Positions 1-64,000 of a stretch of DNA of 64,000 nt are shown in pieces. A program made the translations under genes and the position numbers. This stretch comes from an uncultured Candidatus Altimarinota bacterium. Lineage in GTDB: Bacteria; Patescibacteriota; Gracilibacteria; BD1-5; UBA2023. Where the stretch lies: the NCBI GenBank assembly GCA_963751115.1, contig CAVVTN010000002.1, positions 58,197 through 122,196 on the forward strand, given 5' to 3'. Numbering within the stretch: the first letter of the stretch is position 1; every line of letters starts with the position of its first letter. The notes under the pieces were generated by a model that worked only from the letters and a program-made list of their open reading frames with translations, made no database searches and was not told where the DNA came from.

Positions 1-2
1 TT

Positions 3-209
3 GCTGGAAGTAAAGACAAGATTTTCGGAGGGCTTGGTGAACATGAGATTATCCTCGCTATCCAGAAAAAATACGCTGTGGAATTAGAGAAAAAACACAT
101 TCTCCTCCCAGAAGGACACAAACTCAAACAAGTCGGGGTTACAGATATCAAAATCCACCTCTGAAGCGATGTTAATATCAAGATGCATATTGAGATAAAA
201 AGCAAGTAA
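3..209 (+). CDS. rplI: 50S ribosomal protein L9, C-terminal part (5' end outside window)
   Basis: Frame 3 reads AGSKDKIFGGLGEHEIILAIQKKYAVELEKKHILLPEGHKLKQVGVTDIKIHL-G(TGA)-SDVNIKMHIEIKSK, then TAA at 207-209. Fits the L9 C-domain pattern. Confidence 0.75.
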
Positions 210-407
210 TCATGGAATGGAGTGTTGTCATTTCGACCGAAACGCAGTGTAGTGGAGAAATCCCTTTTAACTACCACATTTGAAGCAATATTTTCTTGAT
301 ATAGATGAAATATCCTGTAATTTCTTTTAGAATAGTTTCGTAATATTGATCTAAAGAGATCCCTCGGCTTCGCTCGGGATGACAAATACTTTTAATTTTT
401 CTGTTTT

Positions 408-803
408 ATGTCCATCCTCGCCATCGACTACGGAACCAAGAAAATCGGACTTGCGATAGAGATAGAATGAATCGCTCTTCCACTCTCTATTATTCCTGCT
501 AAAGAAGCTTTTTCTCGTCTCCCAAAGATTGTCAAGGAACGGTGTATTGATAGGGTTCTCATCGGGATTGCGAATCATATGGATGGCACAACCTCAGAAC
601 AAGCACTTCGCACTCGTGAATTCGGGAAAAAACTCAAAAATATTCTCCCGAAAGATATACAATATATAGAATGGGATGAACGATTGACAAGCTTCGAAGC
701 GAAAAATGCGGTAGATCCTTTCGGAAAAGATCCGAGGAAATTGATCGATGATATAGCCGCAGGAATATTATTGCAGAGTTATTTAGATGCGATGAAATCG
801 TAA
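408..803 (+). CDS. ruvX: Holliday junction resolvase-like protein RuvX/YqgF
   Basis: ATG at 408. MSILAIDYGTKKIGLAIEIE-G(TGA)-IALP... continues in frame into track ORF 579..803 (MDGT...WDERLTS...). Confidence 0.85.
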
Positions 804-831
804 AACTGAAATAATTTAATTTTTAATTTTT

Positions 832-3575: not shown

Positions 3576-4538
3576 CTACAATTTAACTATAAAATATTTA
3601 TCAATTTCTCTAAGCCATTCATCACTTTCTAATATATTTTTACTTGGATTATAAATAATTTCAGGAATGTAATCTCTTTCAGAAATTCTCTGTCTATCTA
3701 CAAGGTACAGCATATAATTATCTCGTTTAATTTTTGCCACATTCATCTCATTTTTAGACCAGTAAAAGGATTTTTTTTAAGAAAAAGATTTAACTTCAAT
3801 GAATCTATCTGAAGTAACAGAATCTATAGAATTATAAGACAAAATATCAAATCATGCGGAGACATCATAATGCGATATTTGGACAATATTTTTAAGTCAT
3901 GAAAGGCGTTCTTTTTCAAATTCTAAAACAAATATTTCTGCCTCTTCTCAATGTAGCTGATCTAAATCCAACCGATTTTTTAATTCTTCTAAAGTCATTT
4001 TTTTCTTAGCATCAATAATTATATTTGAATCTCAGATAATAGGTTGATGAATAGGATTAATTAAGAATCTATAGGGATTATCCTTGTTAATAATCAATAC
4101 AGATAAATCTATAAGTAATTGTTTAAAACTCGAATACTTAAAATCAAATGCGTCATTGGAAAGTTCAAGTTTTGATTCAACTATATTATACGAAAGATAA
4201 TCTGGCGAAAATATTGGCAACAAATCCAGCTTTAATTCCCTATTTTGAAAAATGATTTTTACTAAACTCTTTTTCAGTTCATTGATATCGGTAATGTATA
4301 AAAGAAATAACGATTCTTTTGATACATACAAATATCATCATGACTGAATAAAAACTCAGAGTCGTAAAAATAATTCAACTCAACCATCAAAAACAGTCCT
4401 TGAATCAATTTGTCGATTATAAAAATGGGATGTAAGATCTGGCTGACTCCACCGTTCTATGGTGCAGAAAAGATGAAGTAACTCGACAAAGTACAATGGA
4501 GTTCCGAGATTCTTGTATACCTTAAGATTTTCGAGCAT
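3576..4538 (-). pseudogene. DUF3883-like (restriction-endonuclease-like) protein, interrupted by an in-frame TAA at 3777-3779
   Basis: ATG at 4538 overlaps the SNF2 gene 3' end. It contains track ORF 4032..4331 and continues ..HYDVSA-G-FDILSYNSIDSVTSDRFIEVKSFS-TAA-KKSFYWSKNEMNVAKIKRDNYMLYLVDRQ...FIVKL, TAG at 3576-3578. The motif pattern fits DUF3883. Confidence 0.55.
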
Positions 4539-6471
4539 ATTTCTTTAGGAGTTCTTTTATAATATCTGATTCATCTGATTCATTTAATCTAAAAAATAAA
4601 GGAATATCGGCATCAATAAGTTTTTCCATTCGTTTTATTTTTTCATTTAATTTATCATTAATAATTTCATCTATAGTATCTCTCGTAATGAGATAGTAAT
4701 ATGTTGTTTTTTGATTTGGAGGAAGTCAATATCTATGAATCCGATCCTTTGATTGAAGAAAATTGGAACAATTATAATCTCTTTCCAAATAAATTGCATT
4801 ATGACATCATTCGTGCAATGAAATTGATTCTGCCACTGAGAAAGGATTCGCAATAACTACGGAAAAGTCTTTATTTTCTGGATTATTAAATTTTCAGACA
4901 ATCTCTTCTCTCTCACTCATGGGAACTTCTCATATTAAAAGTTTGGATTTTATTCATTCTGATTCAAGATAATCTTTCAATCATTTAGCATTTTGAACAA
5001 ATATAGTCCAAATAATCACCTTTCCATTAGTTGGTAATATGTCCGTTCTAATAATATCCAATGTCTTTGAAAATTTAGGAGGAGTATGATTATTTAAGTA
5101 TGTTGTAATTTTATTCCTTATTGCTGAGTCATTTTGAAATTCTTCTGGAAGGTTTTTATAATCTTCTTCATATTCTTCTTCATTTAAGCTTTCTTTAATG
5201 GTAGAATTGAGTAATCATGGATTAATAGCAGCCTGTCTCAGTCTTATTAACTTGGCTTTATTTAGGAGATCTTTCAAAGTTCATCAGGCATTCTCTTTAA
5301 ATGAATTGATGAACTTTATGGCAATAAAATCATAGATTTCACGCTGAGTATCATCCATTGTAATAAATTCTAATTTTTCAGATATACCTGGTAATTTTAG
5401 GTCAGATTTTTTAATTCTGATAAAATAAGGAGAAATATTTTTTATAAATTCTTTTACCCTTAAACTTTCATCGTCGGAATTTTTCGTCATTTCCTCAAGT
5501 TGTTGGAGGTGGATTTTTAATATCTCTGGATACTTGAATGGATAAATAAATTTATACAAGTTAAAAAGATCTTCGTACCCATTTGGTATTGGAGTTCAAG
5601 TAAGGATAACTCTTGAAATAGCATCTTTTGAAATCTCGGTGGCAGAAGTTCACCATATTCAACGGGAATTCTTTATTCTATGAGCTTCATCAACTATAAC
5701 CATAGTTTTGTTTTTCTTGAGAAAATCGCGAATTTCTTTTTCAAGAGCATTGACGTATCAATGGTTAATAAGAGTAAGTTCTGATGGATTTCCAGAATAT
5801 AAATGCTGTATCTTTTGATTTTTAGAAATTTCTTGATTTCCAGAAAGTCTCGTTGATGTAATATTTATTCAATGACATTTGAAGTATTGCTCTTCCCATG
5901 GTGAAAAGGATGACAATGGTCAAATAACTAATATTTTATCAACATGCCTTGGGTCTGAGACTGGGAGATTCTTTAGATAGGTATATGCCGCATATACGAT
6001 TGTTGTTTTCCCTGCTCATGGAACAGCAAAATTACAACTATTCTGTGCAAATGTCATATGGAAAGCGGAAAGCATCTGTAAGTCATATAGTTTTCGGCTC
6101 ATATTTCTACCTAGAACTTCTTGAAAATCAGCAAACATTTCTACGAGTTCGGGATTATCTTTAAACTCATTATCTCTAATTTTTTGAGCATTCTCAGAGA
6201 ATTTTCAAAAATTATCCAATTCTCTTTGGTAGTCAGAAAAAACCTCCTTGATTTTATCAGAAATTTCAAAACGAATTTCGAATTTCTTAAGAATAGCTTC
6301 AATATCTCTCAAGACGTTAACTCTCTCTCCTTGATTAAATCAAATAATGAAACTATCAGTAGATACTATCGGATTTAACCTCCTAAGAGATAAGAGAAAT
6401 CTCTTATCTCTGGATAATCCTTCTGTATCGCAAGAAAGAATAAATGAAGAATCGCTTATATCTAAGAGCAT
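4522..6471 (-). CDS. SNF2-family helicase (about 649 aa)
   Basis: Table-25 ORF in frame with track ORF 5284..5559. Motif I is FAVP-G(TGA)-AGKT, motif II is VDEAHRIKN, motif III is LT-G-TPIPNG, and the C-lobe reads SLHE-G-CHNAIYLERDYN..FLQSKDRIHRY-G. TAA at 4522-4524. Confidence 0.85.
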
Positions 6472-6487
6472 AGTAATTAATTTAATA

Positions 6488-7861
6488 TTAAGCTCCTAAA
6501 CTTTTCTTAATTTCATAAGTAAGATGATGGATTTCCTTTACTTTTTCAAGAACTTTCTCTTTTCAATCACCCAATGCTCCAAAATTTATGCGATTTAAAT
6601 CATCAATCATATCACCAAGCAATATAACTGGAGATTTTTTCCCAAGTAATTTTCTAGTTAATTTATCTATTTCTTCCAATTGAGTTAAAGCTTGTGAATC
6701 AATAGGTTTATTCAAATCTATCGCACTAATCTTGTTTAATGCTCAGGATGTTAACTCATATGGCCTATCTTTTGAATCACGATCTCAAATATATGTAAGA
6801 TGAGTATTGAAATTATTTTCTAAAAAAACATAAGCATTCTCTTTGAATTTAGAATCTCTATCATTCAAATGTGCTTCTAAATTATTAGATGATTTATCTA
6901 TAAAGAGTTCCTGATCTTGAAATACCTTTATTCATTCAAAATGTTTTTTTGAAAAAGATTCCCAAATATTTTTGTCTCAAAATAAATGACTTGTTTTGTG
7001 TCAATTGGCTAATTTCCTAAATTTTTTATCTTCAGTCCCAAATTTAATACGAATATAATCAAAAGCAATAAACTTGAGATCATCAACATCATTGTCGGAA
7101 TAGCCATCAAATCATTTTAGACTCGCTCATCAATATAAATTCTGTAACCATCAATGAAGACTAATAAATAAATCCTCTTGTCACTCCATTAATTGAGTAT
7201 ATATTCAGTCATATTCTAAATATTCCAGATACTCATCCATTAATTCTTTTATCTCAACTAATTGTTTAATCTTTCAATCAGTTTCCCCCATCCATATAGC
7301 AATATCATTGGTAGATACTCATCTTTTCGTAAGATTCCAAGCTTTTAAATATTTTTCAATTGGATTATAATCCAATTTTCTATCTTCTCACATCTGATGT
7401 CTAGTTTCAAATTCTTCAATGGAGTTCCTATCATCCTCTAATGTAACTGGAAGAATAATGGCCTTGAAGAATTTCTGCCCTGCCCTATTAAGAAGCATTG
7501 CTCGACGATTTCAGTCTATAATAATACCATCTTTAGTAATGATTCACACTTTTTCTTGTCAAATCTTTATGAGACTTGCTAATGTATCTTTATTTCTATT
7601 TTCTTTAGATTCCCATAATAGTTTCTCAATCAATATTTTTCATTCCTCTTGCTCAACATCTATAGAGCAACCCTGTGTTTCAAGGGATAATGTACGACTT
7701 AATATTCTTCAGTTATATTTATTATAAATCAAAAACTCCAAAGGAATCTTATACACATCAAACGATACCAAATCATCTTGCCAAAGAATATCTTGTTTTC
7801 AATATGGATTTCCTTGATTAATAATAGCCTGTATTTTCTGAATGCGTGTTTCCTGATTCAT
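6488..7861 (-). CDS. ParB/Srx-like N-terminal domain protein with a long helical C-terminal region (about 457 aa)
   Basis: ATG at 7861, 10 nt after the methyltransferase stop. It reads ..IPLEFLIYNKYN-G-RILS...I-G-QEKV-G-IITKDGIIID-G-NRRAMLLNR.. (ParB-type DGNRR core). About 25 in-frame TGA codons; TAA at 6488-6490. Length is a multiple of 3. Confidence 0.65.
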
Positions 7862-7871
7862 AAAAGTAAAA

Positions 7872-9563
7872 TTAAAGAAATAATTTACCTAAGCTATATA
7901 TCACATATAATTGCCCTACTGGCACCTGACTTTTTGGGATTATGCCATTACTAAAAATCAAATCCTCTTTTTCTTCTCTTCTTTGAATAAATTCATTAAT
8001 CTTTTTCAAAATATTTATTGGATTTCTTGAATCCTCTAAATTCACATCCTGCTCATAGTATTTTTGTAATTCAGCTTCATTTCTAATACAAAGGGTATCT
8101 AAATATTTTAAATAATCAACTTTAAATTCAGCAAAGCCTTTTATTCCATCTTCTATATATTTTTCTATAATCTTATAGTTTTCCCTATCTATAACTATCT
8201 GACTGAATCAAGCTCAGGTTCAGAAAAACATCTGAATATACCACTTCTTCCCATAACCCTCTTTTCAGTCAATATAATTCATAAGTTCAACCGTAATATT
8301 TCCTGATTTATATGGATGCCTTCTGAATCTTGCATTCACATTCTTTCTTTTTGGTTTATCGAACTTCATTTCATTGAAAGTGTTGAGTTTAATTTTAACT
8401 TCCTTATATCCATTGTCGAGAGATGAAAAGTCTATTTTTTCTATACTTGGCAATCTAAGTTCTTTTCTAATAACCCTTGCTAGGGCTGCGCTGAGATGTG
8501 GAGATACAGCGTTTCATACCTGCCTCCACTTACTTGACTCGGTTCAGGTAAATTGGTAAGTAATTGGGAATCCCATGAGTGATGCTATTTCACGAATCGT
8601 CGGAAGACGGTACTCTCCATTTCATTTTCTATTATACTCCGATTTATATATAAGAGATTCCCTAGTTTTTGCTGAACGGGTAGCCATTATTGTTCTACAT
8701 GGTTTATCCTTATTCTCAGGAAAAGACATTCTACCCATGAAAGAATGGTTTTGTTTCAGATATTGTGCCTCTTCCCATTCGATAGTATAAAGTCAGGTAT
8801 CATAAAAATGGTCAGTAAATTTCTCACCGATAATTTTTAGGTTTTTATAATTGGGGTCAGTAAATTCAGACTCCATTACATCTTTTTCTGTCATATTCGG
8901 TAATGGTAGTAGGTCACGTATATTTCATGAGGTAATATATATCTCATGGGTCTTTTTTGGAGTTAAAAATTTTTGTGTTTCACACCATTCTCAGCATATA
9001 AATCGTTTTCTGCTTTGTGGTGCACCATAATCTCAAGAATTAAGAATACCTCAGTTATCTTTAACTATAAGAGCTGTGTCATCTGGTTTTTTTCAAATTG
9101 TTTTTGCCCACTTTGAAAGATTTAATCTTTCAAATGAATACTCTTCCTCAACAAACTTTTGGGAATTTGGAACATTCTCCATATACCAGACTTTTAGTTT
9201 TGAATCCGTTTTGTATTTTTTTACAGCAATTACACGAAGAAAAGACTCAATAAGTTTCAATCAGTGAGTTTTATCAGCTTTTCAAGATTTATTAGAGGAA
9301 GAAAATGAGATACAAGGAGGACTTCAAATTATACAAGTTGTATCTTCTAGTTTTTCTATCTCGGATATATCTTCGGAGTCTTCGGACCAAAAATCAAGTA
9401 CACTTTTAACAGAATCACTCAATCAGTGATTCAAATTATGTGTATCTATGGCTGGTTGCCAATAATCAATTCATCGAACAATCTTAAATCATTGTTGTCT
9501 AAATCATTCCGAAAAACCTCCAGCTCAACAAAAAAAATCAATTACTGTTAACTTATTTTTCAT
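7872..9563 (-). CDS. dcm: DNA (cytosine-5) methyltransferase with an approximately 190 aa C-terminal extension
   Basis: ATG at 9563. Motif I is VIDFFC-G(TGA)-AGGFSE-G-F, motif IV is I-G-SPPCISFS, then ENV, QSRKRF and V-G-NAVSP. In frame with track ORF 8265..8453. TAA at 7872-7874. Confidence 0.9.
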
Positions 9564-11944: not shown

Positions 11945-12847
11945 CTATGATTTCAGGATATCTTCATGGATACTATGAACCGCAAGACAACCTTCGGCAG
12001 CACTCATAATTGTTTGTTGGAATTTATTGGAAGCAGTGGTGATATCCCCAGCAGCATAGAGTCCCGGAACATTCGTTTGCTGACGAGCATCTACGACGAT
12101 ATATCCTGCACTATCTTTTGTCGGATTCAAACCATCGATAATCGCTGTCTCTGGCTGATTCCCGATTGCTACGAAAATCCCATCTACTGCCAGCTCATTT
12201 CCCGTATTGAGGATCAATTTTTCCACTCCGAATCCTCATTCGATAGAAGTCACGCTCGTTTCAAAATGTACCTGAATATTGGAATGTTTTGCAAGTTGAT
12301 CTATCCACACCGTCTCCGCACGAAATTCGTTTCCCCGAACGAGAATATGAACTTCCTTGCATATTTCTGCAAGATAGAGCGCTTCGGTGATAGCAGTATT
12401 TCCCCCACCAACCAGAGCGATATTTCGATTTCGGAAAAACATCCCATCGCAGGTTGCACAATAGGAAACTCCGGCACCGAGGAACTTCTCTTCTCATGGA
12501 ACTCCCAGTTTTCGGTATTTATTCCCGATGGCGAGAAGTACATATTTCGCCTCGAGAGTTTTCCCACTCGCTGTTTTGACAGTGAAAATATTTCCCGATT
12601 TTGTCACACTCGAAACCTCATCTTGGATGAGTTCTGAACCAGCCAAAACCGCATGTTCCGTAAAACGGTCCATAATCTCTCGACCGGTTGCCGAGATAGT
12701 TCCTGGATAATTTTCTACTTTGTGAGAAGTTGCCAAAGCTCCGCCCGGCATCGCTCCGATAATGCAATTATTGAGTTTGTAACGAGAAGCGTACATTCCT
12801 GCTGGAAGTCCTGCGGAACCAGCTCAGATGATAATAAGATCGTACAT
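11945..12847 (-). CDS. trxB: Thioredoxin reductase
   Basis: MYDLIII-G(TGA)-AGSAGL (FAD GxGxxG motif). Track ORFs 12494..12796, 12236..12442 and 11945..12226 are all in one frame, joined by TGA. CATC redox motif present. TAG stop. Confidence 0.9.
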
Positions 12848-15218: not shown

Positions 15219-16166
15219 CTATAACTTCAGCAAAATATTCGGACCAAAATATACACGGGAATTCTTTTTTTCCAAATGAAGTTTCCCAAGATCTTTCTGA
15301 GTATAATTTCCCTTATCTCCGATGAATCGAATTATTTCAGCGATTCCTCCTTCCGAGAGTCCAATAGTTCCATTATTTGCCTGTGCATACAAGTATCGAA
15401 TAATCTCTTTTTGGAGAAAAGATGGTTGTAGAAAAAAATCTTCTCCCAAAAAAGTGGTTTCTCCTCTCAAAAATATCACCACTTGTGCGTCGATAAAACC
15501 TCCGAGTTCATTCATATATTTCATAAAAGAAGCAAGATTTTTTCGATATTCTGGATTGATACGTTCAAATTCACTGATGATATTGAGTCGGAGGTGATTT
15601 CGAAGATATATATCATCGGCATTCGTAGAATCAAGTCGAAATGGGATATTTTCTGTCTCCAATTTTCGGAGAATATCGAGTTTGGAAAACTGTCAAAATG
15701 GTCGAAGAATATAGCCATTTTGTTCTGGAATTCCCATGAGTCCATGGATCTTGGATCCCCGAATCAAATTAAACATCAGTGTTTCTATATTGTCATCAAG
15801 ATGGTGCGCGGTCAAGATATATTTTGCACTATATTGCAATCGTACTTGTTCGAGAAAAGCATATCGCTCAATACGAGCCGTTTCCTCGATTCCTTTTTTC
15901 GATTCCTGAGCAAGGCTGGATATATCCTTGCTTGTACTCACAAAAACAAGATGGTTCTTCTCACAAAAATCGCGAAGGAAATCTTCATCTCCATCACTCT
16001 CAGTTCCTCGAAGACAATGATTAAAATGAGCAACAATTATTGCTTCTTTGGCTTGAGTTTTCAGAACTTCCGCCAGTAAATACATACTGTCTGGACCTCA
16101 TGAACACGCGATAATAAGAATATCCTCAGGGAGGATATCGTATTTTTGGAAGAAGTTTTTGAGCAT
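15219..16166 (-). CDS. tilS: tRNA(Ile)-lysidine synthase
   Basis: MLKNFFQKYDILPEDILIIACS-G(TGA)-GPDSMYLL gives the SGGxDS PP-loop. It joins track ORFs 15693..16085 and 15219..15662 in frame. TAG stop. Confidence 0.85.
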
Positions 16167-46161: not shown

Positions 46162-46563
46162 TTAAACGAGAATTTTCGTCTTTACAGGAAGTTTGTATGA
46201 AGCTCATTCAAAAGCCTCTCTTGCAACCTCTGGAGATACTCATGACATTTCAAAGAGTATTCGTCCCGGTCTTACAGGAGCTCGGTACATTTCTGGACTT
46301 CCCTTTCCTCATCCCATCGGAGTTTCCAATGCTTTCTTGGTATATGGACGATCTGGGAAAACACGAATCCAGAGTTTTCCTCATTTTTTCAGAAATCGGA
46401 TAATAGAACGTCTTGCTGCCTCGATTTGTCGAGAAGTGAGAAATCCTGCCTCTACCGTTTTCACGGCATAGTCTCCGAAAGCAATTTCAGATCCTCTTGT
46501 AGCAACCCCCTTAAGGACTCCACGTTGAGATTTCCGATATTTGATTTTCTTCGGCTGTAACAT
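46162..46563 (-). CDS. rplP: 50S ribosomal protein L16
   Basis: Track ORF 46381..46563 continues through four TGA codons (..LKK-G-GKLWIRVFPD..PMG-G-GKGSPE..) to TAA at 46162-46164. Confidence 0.9.
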
Positions 46564-46615
46564 ACGTTAATATGGTAAATAAGTATAGAGATATTGTCGA
46601 AAAGTCAACAGTTTT

Positions 46616-47248
46616 TTATTTTTTATAGATATCACCTTTGTATATCCAAACCTTGAGTCCAATTACTCCGTAAACGGTATTAGCTCTTTCCATAGCATAA
46701 TCAATATCAGCCCGAATAGTCTGACGAGGAATAGCTCCTTCTTTATATGTTTCTACACGAGCGATTTCTGCTCCATTGAGACGACCACCAAGTATAACCT
46801 TGATTCCAAGACCTCCTTTTTCCATTGTTTTAGAAATAGCGTTCTTGATAACACGACGATACGGAAGTTTCTTTTCAATCTGTCGAGCGATAGAATCAGC
46901 TACGAGAGATGCGGAAAGTTCTGGTTTTTTTACCTCTTTTACATCGATGGTAAATTTTCCAGGAAAACGAGCAGCAATGTCTTTTTCAAGACGTTCCTTA
47001 TTCTCATCATTCTTTCCAAGAACCAATGCGGTTTTGGCAGTATAGATGGTAATATTCGTTTCTGAGTTCGTATGACTAAAGAAGATATTTCCGACAGGAA
47101 TTCCAGTAAGGAATTTCTGAACAAAGATACGGAGTTGAACATCAGAAGAGATCTTTTGACCGTAATCTTTTTTGTCATAGTATCCAGTACTCTTCCAAGT
47201 CTTGATGTATCCTATACGGAATGCGAGGGGGCTAACTTTGTGTCCCAT
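46616..47248 (-). CDS. rpsC: 30S ribosomal protein S3
   Basis: Intact track ORF. Confidence 0.9.
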   Translation of the reverse strand: MGHKVSPLAFRIGYIKTWKSTGYYDKKDYGQKISSDVQLRIFVQKFLTGIPVGNIFFSHTNSETNITIYTAKTALVLGKNDENKERLEKDIAARFPGKFTIDVKEVKKPELSASLVADSIARQIEKKLPYRRVIKNAISKTMEKGGLGIKVILGGRLNGAEIARVETYKEGAIPRQTIRADIDYAMERANTVYGVIGLKVWIYKGDIYKK

Positions 47249-47277
47249 AATGCGTAAGCAAATTATGAAAATAAGAA

Positions 47278-47604
47278 TTATTTAACTCGAAGTTCGAGAG
47301 TGACGTTTGATGTTCTCTTCAAAATCGGATGTGATCGTCCACGGGAAATTGGATTTCCACGCTTATAGACGATACCCTTTGTGACACTCACTGATCAGAT
47401 AGTCAGACCTGCGAGCTCTTGCATATCATTGTGTATCGCATTAGCGATAGCACTTGCAAGAACCTTGTGCATAAGGAATCCTCCTTTGTTTGGCATAAAT
47501 CGTAAGATATCGAGTGCTTTTTTTGCCTCCATACCTCGAACAATTTTAGCTATAACATTGAGCTTTTTGTCGGATATTCGAATATTGTTTGCAATTGCTT
47601 TCAT
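47278..47604 (-). CDS. rplV: 50S ribosomal protein L22
   Basis: Track ORF 47395..47604 continues through TGA to TAA at 47278-47280. Confidence 0.9.
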
Positions 47605-47631
47605 AGAGAAAAATTGAATGAAAAATAACTA

Positions 47632-47895
47632 TTATTTATTTCCAGAGTGTCCAATAAATTTTCGAGTAAATGAGAATTCTCCGAGTTTATGTCCTACCAT
47701 GTCTTCAGTAACGAAAACAGGAGTATGAACTTTTCCGTTGTGAACACCGAAAGTGTGCCCAACGAATTCTGGAGTAACTGTACAAGCTCGTGACCAAGTC
47801 TTGATAACAGTTTTCTTTCCTGACTCATTCAAACGTTCCACCTTTTGTACGAGGCGAGCATCTATATATGGTCATTTTTTAAGACTACGTGTCAT
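47632..47895 (-). CDS. rpsS: 30S ribosomal protein S19
   Basis: MTRSLKK-G(TGA at 47872-47874)[16 protein letters not shown] joins track ORF 47632..47841. The canonical motif is SLKKGPF. Confidence 0.9.
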
Positions 47896-47946
47896 AGTAT
47901 TGACGGATTAAATGAAGTTAAATATGTTCTAATTATAATGTTATGA

Positions 47947-48792
47947 CTATCTAAGAAGTTTTCCTCGGCGAGTTCTTACTACCCATCGATCAGTAGTAGT
48001 TCGACGTCGAGTCTTGACTCCACGAGCTGGTTTCCCCCAAGGGGTTTTTGGACCATTTCGTTGTCCGAGAGACTGATGTCATTCTCCACCTCCATGTGGA
48101 TGATCAACAGCATTCATGGACATACCAAGAACCGTTGGTCGGATACCCATCCAACGAGAACGACCCGCTTTACCGATAACAATTTGATTGTGGTCAGTAT
48201 TGGAAACAACTCCGATAGTTGCGTAACATTTCTTGTGTACTCGACGGATTTCTCCAGAAGGAAGTTTTACTTGAGTATATTCTCCTTCTTGAGAAACGAT
48301 AGTAGCAGAAGCTCCAGCAGAACGAACACTGGAAGCTCCAGCATTAACAATAAGTTCTACATTGTAAACAGAAAGTCCTGTTGGAATATTTCCAATCGCG
48401 AGACGATTTCCACTTGCTGGTTTTGCATTATCAGCAGTAATAATCATATCACCTACTTTCATCTCTTTATGAGCAAGAATATATCGACGTTCTCCATCTA
48501 CGTAACAGATAAGTGCAATATATCCAGTTCGAAATGGATCATACTCAATAGTTTCTACTTTTGCGGGAACATCGAGCTTATCAGTGAAGAAGAAGTCTAT
48601 CTTTCGATACAATTTCTTATGTCCACCACCCTGATGACGAACAGTAATACGACCTGCACTATTACGACCTGCTTGACTTTTTGCACCACGAGTAAGAGCT
48701 TTATGTGGTTCACTTGTCGTGAGTTCCTCGAACGTGTATCCAGTCATCTGTCGACGTCCTGGGGTAGTTGGTTTAAATTTCTTGATTGCCAT
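47947..48792 (-). CDS. rplB: 50S ribosomal protein L2
   Basis: Track ORF 48079..48792 continues ..HPHGGGE-G(TGA)-HQSLGQRNGPKTPWGKPARGVKTRR... to TAG at 47947-47949. Confidence 0.9.
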
Positions 48793-48842
48793 AATGGAAA
48801 ATTAAAATTTGAAGTTAAAGGTTGAAAGTTTTCCTTTCTGCT

Positions 48843-49136
48843 TTATTCCTTAATCTTTTGAAGATCAGCGATTCTCTGTCCTTTCTTAAGAGTAACGAGC
48901 GCTTTAAGACGACTCTTTCTCTTTACTTGAACTCCATGTTTACTATTTCGGAATTTCTCACGAGTAGTAATCATATTCACCTTTGCAACTTGAACTCCGT
49001 AGAGACGTTCAAATGCGATACGAATATCTACCTTCGTAGATTCAGGAGATATTATAACAGTGTAAACTCCTTCGAGCTCGAGTCGTTGACTCTTTTCTGT
49101 TATAACAGGTCTTTTAATAATAGTATAAACTGACAT
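48843..49136 (-). CDS. rplW: 50S ribosomal protein L23
   Basis: Intact track ORF. Confidence 0.9.
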   Translation of the reverse strand: MSVYTIIKRPVITEKSQRLELEGVYTVIISPESTKVDIRIAFERLYGVQVAKVNMITTREKFRNSKHGVQVKRKSRLKALVTLKKGQRIADLQKIKE

Positions 49137-49156
49137 AGCGAAGAAATTATTGGTAA

Positions 49157-49777
49157 TTACAAGTACATGGAGTAGAGTTTCTCGATCGATGCTTTTGTGA
49201 AAACAAGGTTATTATATTTGAGGAGATCCATAGGATTTAAGTAATTAACTCCAATGAATTTTACCGTTGGGATATTTCGACCTGCAACGAATGCTCCAGT
49301 ATCTTCTGGACAAACAGCGAAGACTCCAGATGTTACATTCATCTTGGTAACAAGATCAATCATACTCTTTGTCTTCATAACGTCTGTAGCAAAAGATTCT
49401 ACAATCTTGATACCATTTTCACCTGCTTTCGCTGAAAGGAGAGAGAAAAGAGCAGCACGACGTTCTTTTTTATTCATACGAATTGTAAAGTTTCTGTCTT
49501 TTGTAGGACCAAATGCGGCACCCCCACCTCGACGAACTGGAGAACGAGCATCACCCACACGGGCACTACCAGTTCCTTTTTGTTTGTAGAGTTTACGAGT
49601 GGATCCTTTTACTTCTGCACGAGTTTTTGCGTGAGCAATAGCGATACGTGCATTAGAACGCTGAAGTCGAAGAAGTCGGTGAATAAGTCCCATCTGAACT
49701 TCTCTTCCGAAAAGTTCGTCTTTAAGGCTCATCTTCCCATTTTCTTTTCCTTCTTGTGTGTAGAGAACTGCTTCCAT
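49157..49777 (-). CDS. rplD: 50S ribosomal protein L4
   Basis: Intact track ORF. Confidence 0.9.
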   Translation of the reverse strand: MEAVLYTQEGKENGKMSLKDELFGREVQMGLIHRLLRLQRSNARIAIAHAKTRAEVKGSTRKLYKQKGTGSARVGDARSPVRRGGGAAFGPTKDRNFTIRMNKKERRAALFSLLSAKAGENGIKIVESFATDVMKTKSMIDLVTKMNVTSGVFAVCPEDTGAFVAGRNIPTVKFIGVNYLNPMDLLKYNNLVFTKASIEKLYSMYL

Positions 49778-49790
49778 GGATACGATACAA

Positions 49791-50345
49791 TTAGAAATCT
49801 AAAACTACGAGTGAATTACGAGCTCCTGGAACTGGTCCATGAAGAGCGATAACATTAACATTCTTATTAACCAATTCGATACGGATCTTTTTAAGAGTAA
49901 TCTTATCAAGTCCCATATGTCCGTGCATTTTCTGTCCTGGTTTTGTTCGACGTGGTTTACGACAACCAATAGAACCAAGTGCTCGGTGGAATTTTGATCA
50001 GTGTCCCGCAGGTCCTCCAGCAAAGTTATGACGTTTCATGGCTCCGGCAAAACCTTTACCTTTAGAGATTCCAGATACTGTTACCAATTCAATACCGTCA
50101 AGGATATCGAGTGATACAGTATCACCAACCTTCAAGTCAGCCATAGCACCAGTGAATGAGACTTCTCTCATATGGGAAAGCTTTCCGTCAGTTGCCTCAA
50201 GAACGAGTGCTTCATAACCATCAGTATCGATAGTTTTGATTTGTACTACTTTAATTTCTGGGATTTTAACAAGCGTTACTGCGACCATTGCACCACCTTT
50301 GATGATACGAGTCATTTCAAGCTTTTTCCCGATAAGTCCAGCCAT
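49791..50345 (-). CDS. rplC: 50S ribosomal protein L3
   Basis: Track ORF 49998..50345 continues ..GGPAGH-G(TGA)-SKFHRALGSIGCRKPRRTKPGQKMHGHMG.. to TAA at 49791-49793. Confidence 0.9.
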
Positions 50346-55310: not shown

Positions 55311-56870
55311 TTATTGTATCTGACTTGCTAATATTTTAGAAATCTCTGCACGTGTAATATTATCTTTTGGTCGAAAAATAAGTTTGTTATCAACTACTTG
55401 CCCGGAGATAATTTTTTGATCTTTCGCTGCTTCGATATATTTTACGAATCATGAATCGGGCGTTACATCGGAAAATGATGTAGTGGTGAATTTGCTCGTA
55501 TCAAGTTTCAATGATAGAGCAAGTATCTTCATCGCTTCCTCACGAGTAATCGTATCGTTTGGTCGGAATGTCTGAAGTGTAACATTGATGAGATTATTCT
55601 TCACTGCATATGCAATATAAGGTGCATACCAAGATGATTCGGACACATCTGAAAATGGTGTAGTCTTAGAAATATTAGTTATATCACCACCGATCGTTCC
55701 TATTATCATTTTCAAAAATTCTGCTCTGGTAGTATTATTATTTGGATTAAATTTTTCACTATTATTAACCACTCATTTAAGTGACAATTTGACGATATAA
55801 TCGTATGCCCAGTTATTTTGGATATCAATAAATAGTAACTCGGAAGTTGTTTTTGGAAGATTCGATGTTGTTTTCTTTTTTGGAATATTCTTATGTATTA
55901 TCTTTTCTGGTATCGTATTATCATTCACAACATTTTCTCATGAAGTAACCACAGAGACTCCTGATCATGTACATTTCCCATCGGTATTGGATCCAGAATT
56001 ATCACCATTTGGACAGGAATCTGCAAGAGTAATCATTCATCCACCTCAACCACCACCTCATCCTCAGGATGATATTGGAGTAACTTTTGTTGTAACAGTA
56101 TAAGTATCAGAAAATCCACATCCACCACCTCATCCTCAAGCTCCTCCTCCTCCTCATCATCCTCACCCACCACTACCAGTAACTAATGAGGGACATGTAT
56201 AAGTAACTAATAGGACTGCATTTACTGCAGTCAAATATATAGCAGATGAAGTAACTTTTACTTTCACGGTATCTCCACTATTAATACTCCCTCCCGAAGC
56301 GGTGTACATTCCGCCATTAATCGCATATTGCCCACCAGAAATATTTATCATTGCTGGCACATTCATTCCTGTAATTGTGACAGTATTGGATTCATAAATA
56401 TTTGAAAGTTCCGCATTTGATATATCTACGAAAGTAAATGTATTTGGAACGGTATGAGTCACGATACTTATATCGTAGCGACAAACCGCCGAGATAAATA
56501 TAATTGCCGATTTAACGGGACAATTTGCTCATCGATTCGTGTCATCAATATTATCTACACCGATATTAAAAGTATTCCCTAGATATACCACTTGCATGCT
56601 CAGATTTCCTGTAAATGACTGGAGTGTCGGAGTGATTTCTGTAGCGCCGACTCCACCAAACTGACCATCTTTCGTTGTGGTATATTGCAGAAGTACTGTA
56701 TTGTTCGAATCTAGAAATTTCACTACTGCTCAAGCAGGGATATTTGTTTGTCCATCTTTCAATGTTCCCCAGATAGACATAGGAAAGGAAGGAAATCCAG
56801 AAGCGGCAAAAGCATTCTGTATCTGCAGCAAAGAGATGAAGATACAGAGAAGGAGAATATATTTTCTCAT
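55311..56870 (-). CDS. Secreted cell-surface protein with C-terminal SLH domains and poly-Gly linkers
   Basis: ATG at 56870 (MRKYILLLCIFISLLQIQNAFA). Track ORFs 56529..56723, 56163..56462 and 55449..55772 share one frame. The SLH repeats read FSDV..WYAPYIAYAV..FRPNDTITREEA. TAA at 55311-55313. Confidence 0.75.
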
Positions 56871-59384: not shown

Positions 59385-62310
59385 TTACTTCACAATTCCC
59401 AATCTTGCCTCAATTTCCATATCAACATATTCTTTCTTACGTCCGTACATCTTGCGAGAATACTCTTTGATGACCTTCGCAACTTCTGGATTTTTATAGT
59501 GATTATCCCAAATGGTTTTCATATCGAATGGACGAGTCGTCGCATTGTCGATATTGAGTTTACAATAGGTCGTAAAGTTGGCGATTCCGATAATATCCTG
59601 TTGGGAAAGGAGTGGAGCATATTCTTTTTCGAGGTATTCTGCATCTTCCGCACCGACTTTAAAGGACATAATCGTTCCGGCATTCCCGAATACTGCATCT
59701 TTGATGGAAGGTTTTCCATCTTTGGACTTGGATCCTCCAATCTGTGCGATATATTGGTGGGCCATAATAAGTGCCAGATGGTATTTACGAGCTTCAGACA
59801 AGATTTCCCCAAATGTATCAGTGGCGAAGTTCTGAAATTCGTCGACATAGAGAAAGAAATCCTTTCGTTCATCTTCGGGGGTATCCGCACGACTCATCGC
59901 CGCCATATTGATCTTGGAGACAAATATGAGACCGAGAAGCTGTGCATTGAGATCCCCAATCATACCCTTGGAAAGATTGACCATAAGAACTTTTTGATCG
60001 TCCATAACACGACGAAGATTGAAGGCAGATTTTGGCTGACCGATGATATTACGAATCGTTGTATTGGTGATAAATGGACCAAATTTCGAACTGAAATATG
60101 GAATCATTTCTTGTTTCTCACGATCTCCCGTATTGGCATATTCATGTTCCCAAAAAGCTTTTACAACGGGATTTTGCACTTTAGAAGTCTTGTATTTCAT
60201 AAATGCATCATCGACGAAAAGTCGTGGTACATCGATGAGCGTTCCTCCTTCGTCTTCGTCATCCATCAGTGTCAAACAACCATTTCGGAAATAGTGCTGA
60301 ATACGTGGACCAAATATTTCTTCGTTAAATATCTTGATAAATATAGAAGTCGCATCGAGTGCGGCACGATCTTTTTCAATCGCTCGAAGAGCTGGATCAG
60401 TGGCGATAATCTCCAGCATATTGAGTCCCATTGGACGCTCATGATCCGCAGGATTAAATACGATAACATCCTTCGCTCGTTCCTTTGGAGTAAAGGCGAT
60501 AACATCCTCCACGAGATCTCCATGTGGGTCGATAATACACAGTCCGTCTCCATTCCAGAGATCTTGACGTGCCATATATCCGACGAATACAGATTTTCCT
60601 CATCCTGATTTTCCGATGATATAATGATGTCGACCTCGGTCTTTTCGTGTGAAATAAATAGGACTTTTAATATTTCGATATTCATTCCATCCCATGAGAA
60701 CCCCATCGGTAAATACGGGAAATCCTGCAATTTTACGTTGTTGTAGTTCTTGTTTTGGAGTTTTTCCTGTATCCACTGGCTTTCCTTTGTTATCTCCTTC
60801 TGTTTGTATAAGAACAGCTTCACCCGTAATAGTGACGAAATTACGATCCTACATCACGAATGAGATTCCAATTATCATCCACTTTTAGATAACTTCCATC
60901 TTCTGTTAAGACATTTCCGTGTTTATCACGAATATAGTCCATGAGCATGGTTGGGATTTTTGGTGTTCGAAGATTATTTGGTGGCGTCAGCATCTTATAT
61001 TCTAGCCATTTAATAATCGGCGATTTGTTATAGTTGATATCGGGAAAATGATACAGGGTCGAAAGTTCATCGGTTGAAAACATACTCTTGGTCTGCAAAA
61101 GTCCAACAAGACGAAGTTTAAAGGCCAAGTATCGAATCGGCGTAAAGAAGAATGCAAACATATTCTCAAGAATCTGTGGATTATCGAGCTTATTATTGTA
61201 TTCATCCGTAAAAATATTCATGGAAGAAATAAGATTGTACAATCCTGATTCTGCACTCTGTGGAGTATCTGAAGCAACGAGTATACGGATAGATGCTTGA
61301 AATCCTGGCTGTCCTGCGGATTCTCCAACCATCTTCTGAGCTTCCTGTTCAGCTTGGTTGAAAATTTTGTACGAATCTCCAGAAGAGGCTCCAGGAGCTC
61401 CGGAATCTCCACCCGTTGGTTCATTGTTAATGAGACGCTGGGCAATCCAATAAAGTGGAGAAAGAACAGACTGAATAATAGTCATGAATAATCCTCCTTT
61501 TGCTCCTTTTTTGTATGATCCCTTTGCTACCTCACTCGCTGCTTTTTTTGCCTTACGATTCCAGGAAGAACCGACTGGTTTGATAATCATCTGAAATACG
61601 GCATGATCTGTTTTTTTCAAATTACCGATATTATTCGTCAAACTCGACAGTGGATCATCTTCGAAATATTTGTAGGTTTTAATCGGATAGATATCGTCAT
61701 TCGCCTTACTAATAGAAGCGGCACGCAAAGTGTATCCTGACTGGCTTAATATCTCCGTATTCTTCCTTGGAAATGATTTTCACTTCTGCATCGGGATAGT
61801 TCGAAGTAATTTGCTGGGAAATAAGTGTCACATATTCACCGTAGGTCACCGCATAAAAAGACACTTGTCCTTTGTCATAAACAAGTTCGAGGGATATTTT
61901 CGCATGATCAAATATCAAATCAAGGAAAGTTTCCATAAGTGTTGCCTCGGAAATCTTATGAATACCTTTATAAAAGATAGACATAATTCCCGTTTTTTCT
62001 TTGAAATCTTTCTTGGTTTCTTTTTCCTTGTCGAGCTTAGAATCGGCACGAGGAAGAGTAACGCGCATAAATACCAACTTTCGAGCTGCATATATTTCAT
62101 ATACCAAACGGATAAGTTTGAGGAAAAGGAAAAAATGCAAGAAATGCTAAGAAGAAAATATCCTATCCCAGAAAAAAAAGTTCCATACCAAGTCGGAGCA
62201 TTTGCTGCACTATTTGCAACCGCTGCGGAAGTTTGCGTCGGAACCGAACCAATAGAAACACCATTAATCTTCGCGAGTACAGTTGGAATAAGAGAAAAGT
62301 CGAGATTCAT
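59385..62310 (-). CDS. Type IV secretion coupling-protein-like ATPase (VirD4/TraG/TraD family) with a membrane N-terminus; about three frame changes (about 62125-62140, 61715-61745, 60835-60850)
   Basis: Track ORFs 61915..62310, 61709..62140, 60841..61728 and 59385..60575 form one colinear protein. Walker A is IIGKSG-G(TGA at 60600-60602)-GKS. Other motifs are DPHGDL and YVDEFQNF. Confidence 0.7.
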
Positions 62311-62438
62311 AGAATGAATAAGAAAAGAAAAATACTATTACTTTTGCAGCAATAGTATCCGATTTAGGCGAAAAACGCAAACGAGAGAGTATTTTCTCGT
62401 TTACAAATCGTGAGAAATATGGGGAAATCAAAAATATA

Positions 62439-63744
62439 TTAGAACTTCACTGAAAAAATACTTCCTTTCCCTGTTTCACTTTCCACAGAAATTGTATGTC
62501 CAAGTTTTTCAACGATTGTTTTTACGAGAAAAAGTCCGAGTCCATGTCCATTTTGAACACTCCAAGAAGAATCTACACGATACAATCGATCCCATATTTT
62601 ATCGATATTTTCTTTGACAATACCAATTCCCGTATCTCGCACAGAAAATCCTTTTTTATTGAGGGTAATTTCAATTTCTCCCAGTATTAGTGTAGTTGAA
62701 AGCATTCTTAATAAGGTTTGATACAATCATCTGAAAAAGAGATCTATTCGTATTAAAGATTATATTTTTGTCTATATTTCTCATGCACGCGAAGTCCTTT
62801 TTCATGAAAAATCTTTTCTATTTCAGTAATATTATCTTCAAAAAGTTCGGAGACATTTATCTTCTCTTTTTTGATATCTTCTTTTTCGATACGTGCAATA
62901 GTCAGAAGTGTTCCGATCATAGTATCCAGAAAATAAATCTGACTTCGTATATTATCAAATCATGTCTGATAATCTCCACTCTTGAGCGCACAATCTATTT
63001 CTGAATGGATGACCATAAGAGGAGTTTTGAACTCATGTGCCGCATCTATACTAAATTGTCGCAATACTTCCGTTTGAGATTGTATTTTCTTGAAAGCCTC
63101 GGCAAGTGTTTCTGCAACGATGACAAACTCATCATCTTTCGGACCAGTGAGTGGAAATTCTGGAAGAGAAAAATCTGTTTGAAAAGAACGAATATATCGA
63201 ATAATTTTCCCAAGTGGTCTAAGAGAAGCTTTGGTAAATAAAAACGAAACGAGTGTGATAATGAGAAAAAAAACAAGACTCAATAAAAGAGAGATTTTCA
63301 GTAAAGAGCAAATTGTCCATTAACATGTTCTGTGACATCATAAGGTAATCCGACCGTTCCTATATTACGAAAAGGAAAGGTATATTGCATATACCATTTA
63401 TCTTTATCTTTATAAAATCAGAGAATATTTGGCTTGCTTGCATTCCATTTTGGTGAGATAAAAGATGCTCATTCGGTTGTTTGAATCATTCCTCCTTCTG
63501 CCATAATTCTATTATATAATGGCATCAGTGCTTCAGTGCCAGTTATCCCAGCTCCATTTTGTGTTTTCAAAATCAAAACAGTAAGTTCTTCTGTTTTATC
63601 AATGACTTCATTTCTCTCGTCGAGACGCCAGTTGTAAAAATAATATGCATTCAATATGATAACAAACACCAATAAAAGGACACTGGAAAAAAGAGTGAAT
63701 ATGATAGCAGTTCTTGTGGATGTCTTGAATCGGGAAGAGAGCAT
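62439..63744 (-). CDS. Sensor histidine kinase; about three frame changes
   Basis: A TM and sensor part (63469..63744), HAMP plus H-box DAAHEFKTPL (62960..63283), an N-box ..SNLIKNA.. and the HATPase segment DTGIGI..GHGLGL (62439..62726) lie in different frames. Confidence 0.8.
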
Positions 63745-63749
63745 AGATT

Positions 63750-64000
63750 TTATGATTTTGGAAGAGTAAAAACATATCCATATCCTTTGATAGTTTGGAT
63801 AATATCGGGGGAAAGTTTCTTGCGTATATTGGAAATATAAACATCGAGTTTATCGCTCTCAAAAAGAGATTCTCCTCACCAGATATGGTCAATAATATCG
63901 GTTCGTGAAACTGCGATTCCTTCGTGTGTAATGAGATATTCTAAAATCTGAAATTCTTTCAAAGGGATATGAATAATTTCACCACCTTTTTCCACTTCTC
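63750..64000 (-). CDS. OmpR/PhoB-type response regulator, C-terminal part (5' end outside window)
   Basis: The minus strand reads ..EVEKGGEIIHIPLKEFQILEYLITHEGIAVSRTDIIDHIW-G-GESLFESDKLDVYISNIRKKL..GYGYVF. TAA at 63750-63752. Confidence 0.8.

What the first reader, a model, noticed from the sequence alone, without database searches (positions are those of the whole stretch)
1..64000. UGA is decoded as glycine (translation table 25): a Gracilibacteria/Absconditabacteria-type CPR genome
In-frame TGA falls exactly on invariant glycines in unrelated proteins:
- rpsS SLKK-G-P (47872-47874)
- rplF SRI-G-K (43610-43612)
- trxB FAD motif III-G-AGSAG (12824-12826)
- tilS PP-loop S-G-GPDS (16098-16100)
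- dcm motif I FC-G-AGG (9525-9527) and motif IV G-SPPC
- rplB GGGE-G-H (48079-48081)
- rplP MG-G-GKG
- T4CP Walker A GKSG-G-GKS (60600-60602)

Every gene I re-joined ends in TAA or TAG. The ribosomal cluster lacks rpmD (L30) between rpsE and rplO, which is typical of CPR. The consequence is that the standard-code ORF track splits most genes, and any standard annotation of this contig would look like mass pseudogenisation.
Basis: partly seen in the sequence, partly recalled or inferred. Interest (0 to 1): 0.7.

Follow-up and report, generated by a model that had tools for sequence, protein, structure and literature searches.

The report
UGA-as-glycine code in a Gracilibacteria genome

Summary
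All cited coordinates hold in-frame TGA codons on the minus strand. Treating TGA as sense raises ORFs of at least 400 aa from 2 to 16, whereas the TAA-sense and TAG-sense controls give 3 and 2. Pfam domains run end to end across TGAs, and 48 of 73 genes carry at least one TGA.

Against 79 standard-code genomes plus E. coli, TGA sites align to Gly-majority columns at 16 of 25 sites (background 9.8%, P = 7e-11). No site aligns to Trp or Cys, and Gly beats every other amino acid by at least 22 nats. Solved structures confirm the motif glycines in TrxB, TilS, Dcm and SNF2. Close relatives exchange TGA with GGN at 18 of 27 differing sites.

All other codons are standard, including CGA and CGG as Arg, so this is plain table 25 and not the Absconditabacteria variant. 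The nearest relatives are all Candidatus Gracilibacteria, and L30 is absent.

tRNA-Gly(UCA) and RF2 cannot be checked in this window. About seven genes are also broken by frameshifts that the code does not explain. This is known biology and of low novelty.

The parts
1..64000 (.). Chromosomal segment of a Ca. Gracilibacteria bacterium, decoded with UGA = Gly. 73 genes were called with TAA/TAG as the only stops, containing 181 in-frame TGA in 17,285 codons.
41511..50345 (-). Ribosomal protein cluster rplC-rplD-rplW-rplB-rpsS-rplV-rpsC-rplP-rpmC-rpsQ-rplN-rplX-rplE-rpsN-rpsH-rplF-rplR-rpsE-rplO, with 9 in-frame TGA. No rpsJ homologue was found upstream.
41898..42011 (-). 114-nt rpsE-rplO spacer where rpmD (L30) would lie. 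No L30 is present.
47872..47874 (-). TGA in rpsS (SLKK-x-P). Gly in 66/66 standard-code orthologues.
48079..48081 (-). TGA in rplB (HPHGGGE-x-H). Gly in all 63 ungapped standard-code alignments (two further alignments are gapped there). In public databases the same site appears as G (102 entries), W (15) or a truncation (3).
43610..43612 (-). TGA in rplF (SRI-x-K). Gly in 70/71 orthologues.
46240..46242 (-). TGA in rplP at an invariant Gly column (69/69).
46309..46311 (-). TGA in rplP 'MG-x-GKG'. Lys in 60/70 standard-code orthologues and GGT (Gly) in the Gracilibacteria relative, so this is a lineage-specific Gly, not an invariant one.
46204..46206 (-). TGA in rplP where other bacteria have Leu (65/69). 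It is conserved as TGA in the closest relatives.
12824..12826 (-). TGA in trxB at the first Gly of the FAD GxGxxG motif.
16098..16100 (-). TGA in the tilS PP-loop SGGxDS. Gly in 3/3 solved TilS structures.
9525..9527 (-). TGA in Dcm motif I (F-x-G-x-G). Gly in the PDB methyltransferases.
9324..9326 (-). TGA in Dcm motif IV (G-PPC). Gly in the PDB methyltransferases. Coordinates derived from codon 80 of gene 7872-9563.
60600..60602 (-). TGA in the T4CP Walker A (GKSG-x-GKS). It aligns to Thr in TrwB, a variable position, so it is uninformative about the code.
3777..9563 (-). AT-rich (30% GC) four-gene defence-type island: a protein with a NOV_C-like nuclease domain, an SNF2 helicase, one unknown protein and a type II C5-methyltransferase. 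TGA makes up 63% of Gly codons (68 TGA against 40 GGN).
55990..56176 (-). Gly-rich linkers in the SLH-domain surface protein, with TGA codons interleaved among GGN (…GGT GGG TGA GGA TGA TGA GGA GGA…). Coordinates are approximate.

Best explanation
The window is a piece of the chromosome of an uncultured Candidatus Gracilibacteria (BD1-5-type, CPR/Patescibacteria) bacterium that uses NCBI translation table 25. UGA is an ordinary sense codon for glycine, UAA and UAG are the only terminators, and every other codon has its standard meaning.

Shown here: UGA is sense, it means Gly, it does not mean Trp, Cys or Sec, it is not used as a terminator in the genes that can be checked, and the organism groups with Gracilibacteria.

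Inferred from published work on this clade and not visible in the window: decoding is done by a tRNA-Gly with anticodon UCA, and release factor 2 has been lost, so UGA is no longer recognised as a stop.

UGA use is uneven. It is rare in ribosomal and ATP-synthase genes (4-5% of Gly codons), about 12% elsewhere, and the majority Gly codon (63%) in an AT-rich island. This fits AT mutational pressure (UGA is the most AT-rich Gly codon) together with avoidance in highly expressed genes.
For: - **ORF structure.** TGA-as-sense raises ORFs of at least 400 aa from 2 to 16, while the TAA-sense and TAG-sense controls give 3 and 2.
- **Domain continuity.** Full-length Pfam domains span TGAs, e.g. DNA_methylase 2-323/324 with 21 TGA in the gene, and SNF2, Pyr_redox_2, PP-loop and ribosomal domains.
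- **Codon matrix.** TGA gives a Gly majority at 16/25 sites, against GGN 72-88% Gly and TGG 58% Trp. No TGA site is Trp or Cys.
- **Statistics.** P = 6.6e-11, and Gly is the best of the 20 amino acids by 22.4 nats.
- **Other codons.** All are standard; CGA is Arg at 66/116 sites and CGG is Arg at two invariant sites.
- **PDB alignments.** Motif glycines in TrxB, Dcm, SNF2 motifs III, IV and VI and the TilS PP-loop.
- **Relatives.** 18 of 27 sites that differ are TGA/GGN exchanges and none involves TGG.
- **Internal evidence.** TGA lies inside poly-Gly tracts, and the island proteins are 2.1% Gly without TGA but 5.6% with it.
- **Not a terminator.** TGA positions are uniform along genes (KS p = 0.70), and validated C-termini end at TAA/TAG.
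- **Taxonomy.** The best GTDB hit and every named L2/L14 homologue are Ca. Gracilibacteria, apart from early 'gcode 4' ACD bins and one 'Patescibacteria group' entry.
- **Literature.** UGA = Gly with tRNA-Gly(UCA) and RF2 loss in this clade (PMC8629427, PMC4032931, bioRxiv 10.64898/2026.05.24.727570).
Against: No tRNA-Gly(UCA) is in the window; it holds only tRNA-Thr(GGT). Presence or absence of prfB cannot be assessed.

About a third of aligned TGA sites are not Gly in distant references, for example L16 Lys and Leu, TilS Leu/Tyr, and several SNF2 positions. The rate is only slightly above that of true GGN codons, and the sites are Gly or TGA in close relatives where that could be checked.

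Some genomes labelled Gracilibacteria in NCBI use the standard code (PMC8629427), so the name alone proves nothing. The code call here rests on the sequence evidence.

At least 12 frameshifts in about 7 genes show that the sequence is not error-free.
Confidence: 0.95

Rival explanations
1. UGA is read as tryptophan (translation table 4), as in Mycoplasmatales and several insect endosymbionts.
For: Some public translations of relatives' L2 carry W at these sites ('HPHWGWEWH'), and early ACD bins are labelled 'gcode 4'. That reflects the table chosen by annotators, not evidence about decoding.
Against: None of the 25 aligned TGA sites has a Trp majority. The log-likelihood for Trp is 45 nats worse than for Gly. 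No TGA/TGG exchanges occur between relatives. TGA sits on universally invariant glycines.
Confidence: 0.005
2. The code is standard, and the in-frame TGAs are real stops in a decaying, pseudogene-rich genome or are sequencing errors.
For: The window does contain genuinely broken genes: frameshifts in secY, radA, adk, hemW, a histidine kinase and the DGR RT.
Against: There are 181 TGA but zero TAA/TAG inside the same frames. Essential ribosomal genes carry TGA at invariant Gly. TGA codons are conserved at the same sites in relatives from other samples. Homology continues on both sides of every TGA tested.
Confidence: 0.005
3. UGA is dual-use: Gly inside genes, but also a context-dependent terminator at some gene ends, as in some protists.
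For: This cannot be excluded for genes without good homologues. Three genes have their last TGA within 5 codons of the TAA/TAG stop.
Against: TGA positions are uniform along genes (KS p = 0.70). All 18 ribosomal segments and most other validated proteins align to within 0-18 residues of a TAA/TAG stop, with no TGA in the tail. No such mechanism has been reported for this clade.
Confidence: 0.03
4. The organism is an Absconditabacteria (SR1)-type bacterium with the extended code in which CGA and CGG are also read as Trp.
For: The UGA = Gly reassignment and the absence of L30 are shared. One CGG site aligns to Trp in a single E. coli comparison.
Against: CGA is abundant (151 per 10,000 codons) and aligns to Arg at 66/116 sites. 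CGG aligns to Arg at two sites that are invariant in 68-69 references. None of the 120 best L2 homologues is named Absconditabacteria.
Confidence: 0.01

Closest known systems
NCBI translation table 25 as described for Gracilibacteria / BD1-5 (Rinke et al. 2013; Hanke et al. 2014, PMC4032931, with proteomic support; Codetta screen PMC8629427)
   Same: UGA is a Gly sense codon and TAA/TAG are the only stops. GC is moderately low at 38%. It is a CPR lineage lacking L30. The nearest homologues are named Ca. Gracilibacteria, including CG2_30_37_12.
   Different: Nothing essential differs; this is another genome of the same kind. The tRNA-Gly(UCA) and RF2-loss hallmarks could not be seen in this 64-kb window.
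Absconditabacteria (SR1) code (Campbell et al. 2013, plus the CGA/CGG-to-Trp reassignment reported in PMC8629427)
   Same: UGA is reassigned to Gly, and it is a sister CPR lineage.
   Different: Here CGA and CGG remain Arg and CGA is a common codon. Homologues are Gracilibacteria, not SR1.
Translation table 4 (Mycoplasmatales, Hodgkinia, Zinderia and others)
   Same: UGA is a sense codon, the genome is reduced, and a standard-code caller fragments the genes.
   Different: The amino acid is Gly, not Trp.

Membership tests
Translation table 25 (UGA = Gly) | UGA occurs in frame inside conserved protein-coding genes, i.e. it is a sense codon | tested here: met
   181 in-frame TGA in 48 of 73 genes. 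Pfam domains and orthologue alignments are continuous across them.
Translation table 25 (UGA = Gly) | UGA aligns to glycine columns of orthologues from standard-code organisms | tested here: met
   16/25 sites have a Gly majority (P = 6.6e-11), and Gly is the best of 20 amino acids by 22.4 nats. PDB motif glycines in TrxB, TilS, Dcm and SNF2.
Translation table 25 (UGA = Gly) | UAA and UAG remain the terminators, and UGA is not used to terminate | tested here: met
   56 TAA and 17 TAG stops. Validated C-termini end at them, and TGA positions are uniform along genes.
Translation table 25 (UGA = Gly) | All other codons keep their standard meaning | tested here: met
   60 of the 61 standard sense codons have the standard residue as their majority. 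AGG has only 2 sites and is uninformative.
Translation table 25 (UGA = Gly) | The genome encodes a tRNA with anticodon UCA and Gly identity elements | not testable with these tools
   The window holds only tRNA-Thr(GGT). No tRNAs were found in the relatives' loci fetched.
Translation table 25 (UGA = Gly) | Release factor 2 (prfB) is absent from the genome | not testable with these tools
   No RF domain appears among the window's genes, but 64 kb says nothing about the whole genome.
Translation table 4 (UGA = Trp) | UGA aligns to tryptophan columns | tested here: not met
   0/25 sites. The Trp likelihood is 45 nats worse than Gly.
Selenocysteine recoding | UGA lies at Cys/Sec columns of a few selenoprotein families | tested here: not met
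   0/25 Cys-majority sites, and 181 TGA are spread over 48 unrelated genes.
Absconditabacteria extended code | CGA and CGG are rare and align to Trp | tested here: not met
   CGA occurs at 151 per 10,000 codons and is Arg at 66/116 sites. CGG is Arg at two invariant sites.
Candidatus Gracilibacteria (CPR / Patescibacteria) | Ribosomal proteins are closest to named Gracilibacteria genomes | tested here: met
   The L14 best GTDB hit is a Gracilibacteria MAG at 82% identity, with the next hits at 69% or less. All named hits among the top 120 for L2 are Gracilibacteria or early 'gcode 4' ACD bins, plus one 'Patescibacteria group' entry. Members of the 90%-identity clusters include CG2_30_37_12.
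Candidatus Gracilibacteria (CPR / Patescibacteria) | Ribosomal protein L30 is absent, a trait typical of CPR | tested here: met
   The rpsE-rplO gap is 114 nt and no homologue exists in the window or in relative L002. 58 of 64 standard-code loci do have L30, so the trait is suggestive rather than exclusive (bioRxiv 10.1101/2022.01.07.475337).
Candidatus Gracilibacteria (CPR / Patescibacteria) | Placement by 16S rRNA or a concatenated-marker tree | not tested
   There is no rRNA gene in the window and no tree was built.

The most novel reading that the evidence does not exclude
UGA usage is sharply partitioned. It is nearly absent from highly expressed ribosomal and ATP-synthase genes but is the majority glycine codon (63%) in an AT-rich defence island whose proteins have almost no homologues in 5.8 billion public proteins. 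This may be more than mutational bias. The island could come from a private mobile gene pool that circulates only among UGA = Gly organisms and their phages, which would be a natural 'genetic firewall' (each gene carries 8-21 would-be stops in any standard-code host). Alternatively, UGA could be a slow, tRNA-limited codon that throttles expression of such genes.
Probability: 0.2. Interest if true: 0.45.

Novelty: already known. Interest (0 to 1): 0.2.

Why it matters
The biology is textbook: table 25 was defined in 2013, and Codetta and gTranslate detect it routinely.

The practical point is real, though. The public gene call for this very contig holds ribosomal protein L2 cut off at the UGA. 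Relatives' L2 entries in databases carry Trp in place of the universal HPHGGGEG glycines or are truncated. Genes rich in UGA, such as the defence island, are effectively invisible to protein databases.

Anyone annotating or mining this contig must use table 25. They should also expect some residual frameshift breaks that the code does not repair.

Tried and rejected
- **Greedy ORF choice.** Picking the longest ORFs under TGA = sense selected antisense ORFs in the ribosomal cluster. I replaced it with a self-trained codon-usage caller.
- **Contaminated codon comparisons.** The first comparisons with relatives were contaminated by antisense ORFs and by off-frame ORFs on the same strand, which produced spurious TGA/CGA pairs. 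I redid the analysis using only homology-validated frames.
- **E. coli TilS.** It was too divergent to align at the E-value used, so I used the PDB TilS structures instead.
- **tRNA-Gly(UCA).** I searched the window and 7 related loci and found none. Extending beyond the window was judged not worthwhile, since about 18 kb of a megabase-scale genome gives only a 1-2% chance of including the gene.
- **Island origin.** Searching with the four concatenated island proteins gave a single weak SNF2 hit at 25% identity, so the origin could not be traced. PADLOC finds type II methyltransferase and ZorD/DrmD-like helicase similarities but no complete named system.
- **Non-Gly TGA sites.** I considered that TGA at hydrophobic positions (L16, TilS, SNF2) might hint at a second meaning. 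I rejected this because the non-Gly rate is close to that of true GGN codons, and those SNF2 alignments are at roughly 20% identity.


Full report
**Observation.** The window is 64 kb at 38% GC. If TGA is treated as sense, ORFs of at least 400 aa rise from 2 to 16 and the longest ORF from 453 to 816 aa. Making TAA or TAG sense instead gives only 3 and 2 such ORFs. A self-trained codon-usage gene caller that uses only TAA/TAG as stops finds 73 genes covering 81% of the window, with 181 in-frame TGA in 17,285 codons. 48 of the 73 genes carry at least one TGA. Scanned with TGA written as X, these genes give full-length Pfam matches that run across the TGAs: DNA_methylase 2-323/324 with 21 TGA in the gene, SNF2, Pyr_redox_2 1-290/291, PP-loop 2-181/182, T2SSE, Mur ligase, DprA and 19 ribosomal protein families.

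**What UGA encodes.** I fetched 79 ribosomal-protein loci from standard-code GTDB genomes and ten E. coli K-12 regions holding orthologues of the window's housekeeping genes. For all 5,875 aligned codons I tabulated which reference residue aligns to each window codon.
- TGA has a Gly majority at 16 of 25 sites (64%). True Gly codons give GGA 76%, GGT 78%, GGC 88% and GGG 72%, and TGG gives Trp at 58%.
- No TGA site has a Trp or Cys majority.
- Only 9.8% of all aligned sites are Gly-majority, so the binomial P is 6.6e-11.
- In an empirical likelihood over all 20 amino acids, Gly wins by 22.4 nats over Asn, with Trp 45 nats and Cys 51 nats worse.
- Every other codon with usable counts keeps its standard meaning. 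CGA is Arg at 66/116 sites and is common at 151 per 10,000 codons. CGG is Arg at two sites that are invariant in 68-69 references. This matters because Absconditabacteria, and some Gracilibacteria, are reported to read CGA/CGG as Trp (PMC8629427). This genome does not.

**Independent structural references.** Alignments to solved structures place TGA on catalytic-motif glycines:
- TrxB GxGxxG and 'VPGE'.
- Dcm motif I, motif IV 'GGPPC' and motif X 'QxGNAV'.
- SNF2 motif III 'LTGTP', motif IV 'DG' and motif VI 'HRIGQ'.
- The TilS PP-loop SGGxDS in 3/3 structures.

**Evolutionary and internal evidence.** I compared the window with two Gracilibacteria relatives, L097 at 87.6% and L002 at 63.6% amino-acid identity, using homology-validated frames only. 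Of the 27 orthologous sites where one genome has TGA and the other a different codon, 18 are GGN and none is TGG. In a surface protein, TGA codons are interleaved with GGN in poly-Gly linkers (…GGT GGG TGA GGA TGA TGA GGA GGA…). The four island proteins would be 2.1% Gly without TGA but 5.6% with it. In-frame TGAs are uniformly distributed along genes (KS p = 0.70). Homology-validated C-termini run to within 0-10 residues of a TAA/TAG stop for the ribosomal proteins, with no TGA in the tail. There is therefore no sign that UGA also terminates.

Six of the eight examples are genuine invariant glycines. Two are not. The rplP 'MG-G-GKG' site (46309-46311) is Lys in 60 of 70 standard-code orthologues, and it is GGT (Gly) only in the Gracilibacteria relative. 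The T4CP Walker-A site aligns to Thr in TrwB, a variable position. A further rplP TGA (46204-46206) sits where other bacteria have Leu but is a conserved TGA in the closest relatives. TilS X158 aligns to Leu/Tyr. These cases do not weaken the assignment, because true GGN codons show a similar minority of non-Gly columns.

**Who it is.** The best GTDB match for L14 is a Ca. Gracilibacteria MAG at 82% identity, and everything else is at 69% or less. Every named protein among the 120 best L2 homologues is Ca. Gracilibacteria, apart from early 'uncultured bacterium (gcode 4)' ACD bins and one 'Patescibacteria group' entry. Clusters at 90% identity include Ca. Gracilibacteria bacterium CG2_30_37_12, and a close relative comes from a groundwater metagenome. 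L30 is absent: the rpsE-rplO gap is 114 nt and no homologue is found. That is typical of CPR (bioRxiv 10.1101/2022.01.07.475337), but by the same test L30 is also missing from 6 of 64 standard-code loci, so it is supportive rather than diagnostic. According to a recent preprint, the table-25 lineages form GTDB class JAEDAM01 (orders BD1-5 and Absconditabacterales), and some genomes that NCBI labels Gracilibacteria use table 11 (10.64898/2026.05.24.727570; PMC8629427). The name alone therefore does not establish the code. The sequence evidence does.

**Consequence for annotation.**
- The exact 237-aa L2 fragment ending '…HPHGGGE', stopped at the TGA, is in the public collection on a 124,912-nt NCBI/ENA contig that also carries this exact L14. 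Full-length Gly or Trp versions are not there.
- Among 120 relatives' L2 entries, 102 have Gly at this column, 15 have Trp ('HPHWGWEWH', a table-4 translation) and 3 are truncated at or just before it.
- Standard-code calls on related contigs miss L16 and S19, shorten L6 by 14 residues and fragment UvrA.

**Mechanism.** Shown here: UGA is a Gly sense codon and TAA/TAG terminate. Inferred from the literature on this clade: a tRNA-Gly(UCA) decodes UGA and RF2 has been lost (PMC8629427; 10.64898/2026.05.24.727570; proteomic support for BD1-5 in PMC4032931). The window holds only tRNA-Thr(GGT) and RNase P RNA, and no tRNA was found in the relatives' loci. The tRNA/RF2 test is therefore open and is the decisive next step.

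**Caveat: not all breaks are due to the code.** SecY matches its orthologue in three successive frames. RadA, adenylate kinase, HemW, a histidine kinase and the DGR reverse transcriptase are likewise split by frameshifts. That makes at least 12 frameshifts in about 7 genes. The ribosomal and ATP-synthase genes are clean. Because essential genes are hit repeatedly, indel errors in the assembly are the likeliest cause, but this was not tested.

**Uneven UGA use.** TGA makes up 4% of Gly codons in the ribosomal cluster, 5% in the ATP-synthase operon and 12% in other genes. It makes up 63% in a 30%-GC four-gene island at 3777-9563, which holds a protein with a NOV_C-like nuclease domain, an SNF2 helicase, one unknown protein and a type II C5-methyltransferase. 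Across genes, the TGA fraction falls as GC rises (Spearman rho = -0.34, p = 0.007). That fits AT pressure favouring the most AT-rich Gly codon. The island proteins have essentially no close homologues in 5.8 billion proteins, so the island's origin could not be traced.

**Verdict.** The biology has been known since 2013. Interest is low except as an annotation warning.

Noticed in passing
window 38127-40902 (minus strand): A complete diversity-generating retroelement is inserted between rplO and secY. It comprises a template repeat (40757-40902), a reverse transcriptase (about 39374-40780, RVT_1), a target gene with the variable repeat at its 3' end (38526-38672) and a bAvd accessory gene (38127-38477, 46.9 bits against a cutoff of 40). 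17 of 19 TR/VR substitutions are at template adenines, and the TR frame is AAC-rich. The VR also has three 1-nt deletions relative to the TR, so the target ORF is frame-broken in this assembly. The relative L002 has rplO directly followed by secY, so the DGR is an insertion.
   Followed up: partly
window 41240-41361: A perfect heptanucleotide microsatellite, (GCTGGTT) x 17.4 copies at 100% identity, lies between the DGR template repeat and rplO. The 7-nt unit is not a multiple of three, which makes it a candidate slippage or phase-variable tract.
   Followed up: no
window 35743-37067; 51771-53319; 19844-20707; 18903-19982; 62439-63283; about 40450: Frameshifts that table 25 does not repair. 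SecY is in three frames (two shifts, near 36430 and 35920). RadA is in three pieces. Adenylate kinase is in two. HemW is in at least three. A histidine kinase has two shifts near 62750 and 62700. The DGR RT has one. In total there are at least 12 frameshifts in about 7 genes, while the ribosomal and ATP-synthase genes are intact. They are probably assembly indel errors, but this was not tested.
   Followed up: partly
window 3777-9563 (minus strand): A 30%-GC island of four genes: a 253-aa protein with a NOV_C/PD-T4-1-like nuclease end, an SNF2 helicase (ZorD/DrmD-like), a 457-aa protein with no family hit, and a 563-aa type II C5-methyltransferase with a roughly 190-aa C-terminal extension. 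TGA is the majority Gly codon here. A search of 5.8 billion proteins returned only one weak hit. No complete named defence system is recognised.
   Followed up: partly
window 2151-3473 (minus strand): A single 440-aa ORF has the glycosyltransferase domains in permuted order: Glycos_transf_1, normally the C-terminal domain, at residues 106-190, before Glyco_transf_4, normally the N-terminal domain, at 254-435. There is no stop or TGA between them, and the flanks have no room for the missing halves. It could be a circular permutation, a remnant of a tandem duplication, or a misassembly.
   Followed up: no
window 20634-21002 (minus strand): A bacterial class A RNase P RNA (179.6 bits, full-length model match) explains part of a region with no called gene. 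tRNA-Thr(GGT) at 18820-18895 is the only tRNA in the window.
   Followed up: yes
window 50345-51770: No rpsJ (S10) homologue lies upstream of rplC, where it sits in E. coli and most bacteria. The 1.4 kb between rplC and radA holds only short unassigned ORFs.
   Followed up: partly
window 53417-62310 (minus strand): A cell-surface or DNA-transfer-like cluster: a protein with a T4SS-pilin domain, a Fic protein, an SLH-domain protein with Gly-rich linkers, an 816-aa protein with no family hit, a VirD4/TrwB-like coupling ATPase and a 489-aa unknown protein. A PilB-type ATPase lies separately at 17451-18758.
   Followed up: no
relatives' L2 proteins P0053, P0060, P0079 and others: Public database entries for Gracilibacteria L2 carry Trp at universally conserved glycines ('HPHWGWEWH'). 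This is a legacy of translating these genomes with table 4. Other entries are truncated at the TGA.
   Followed up: yes
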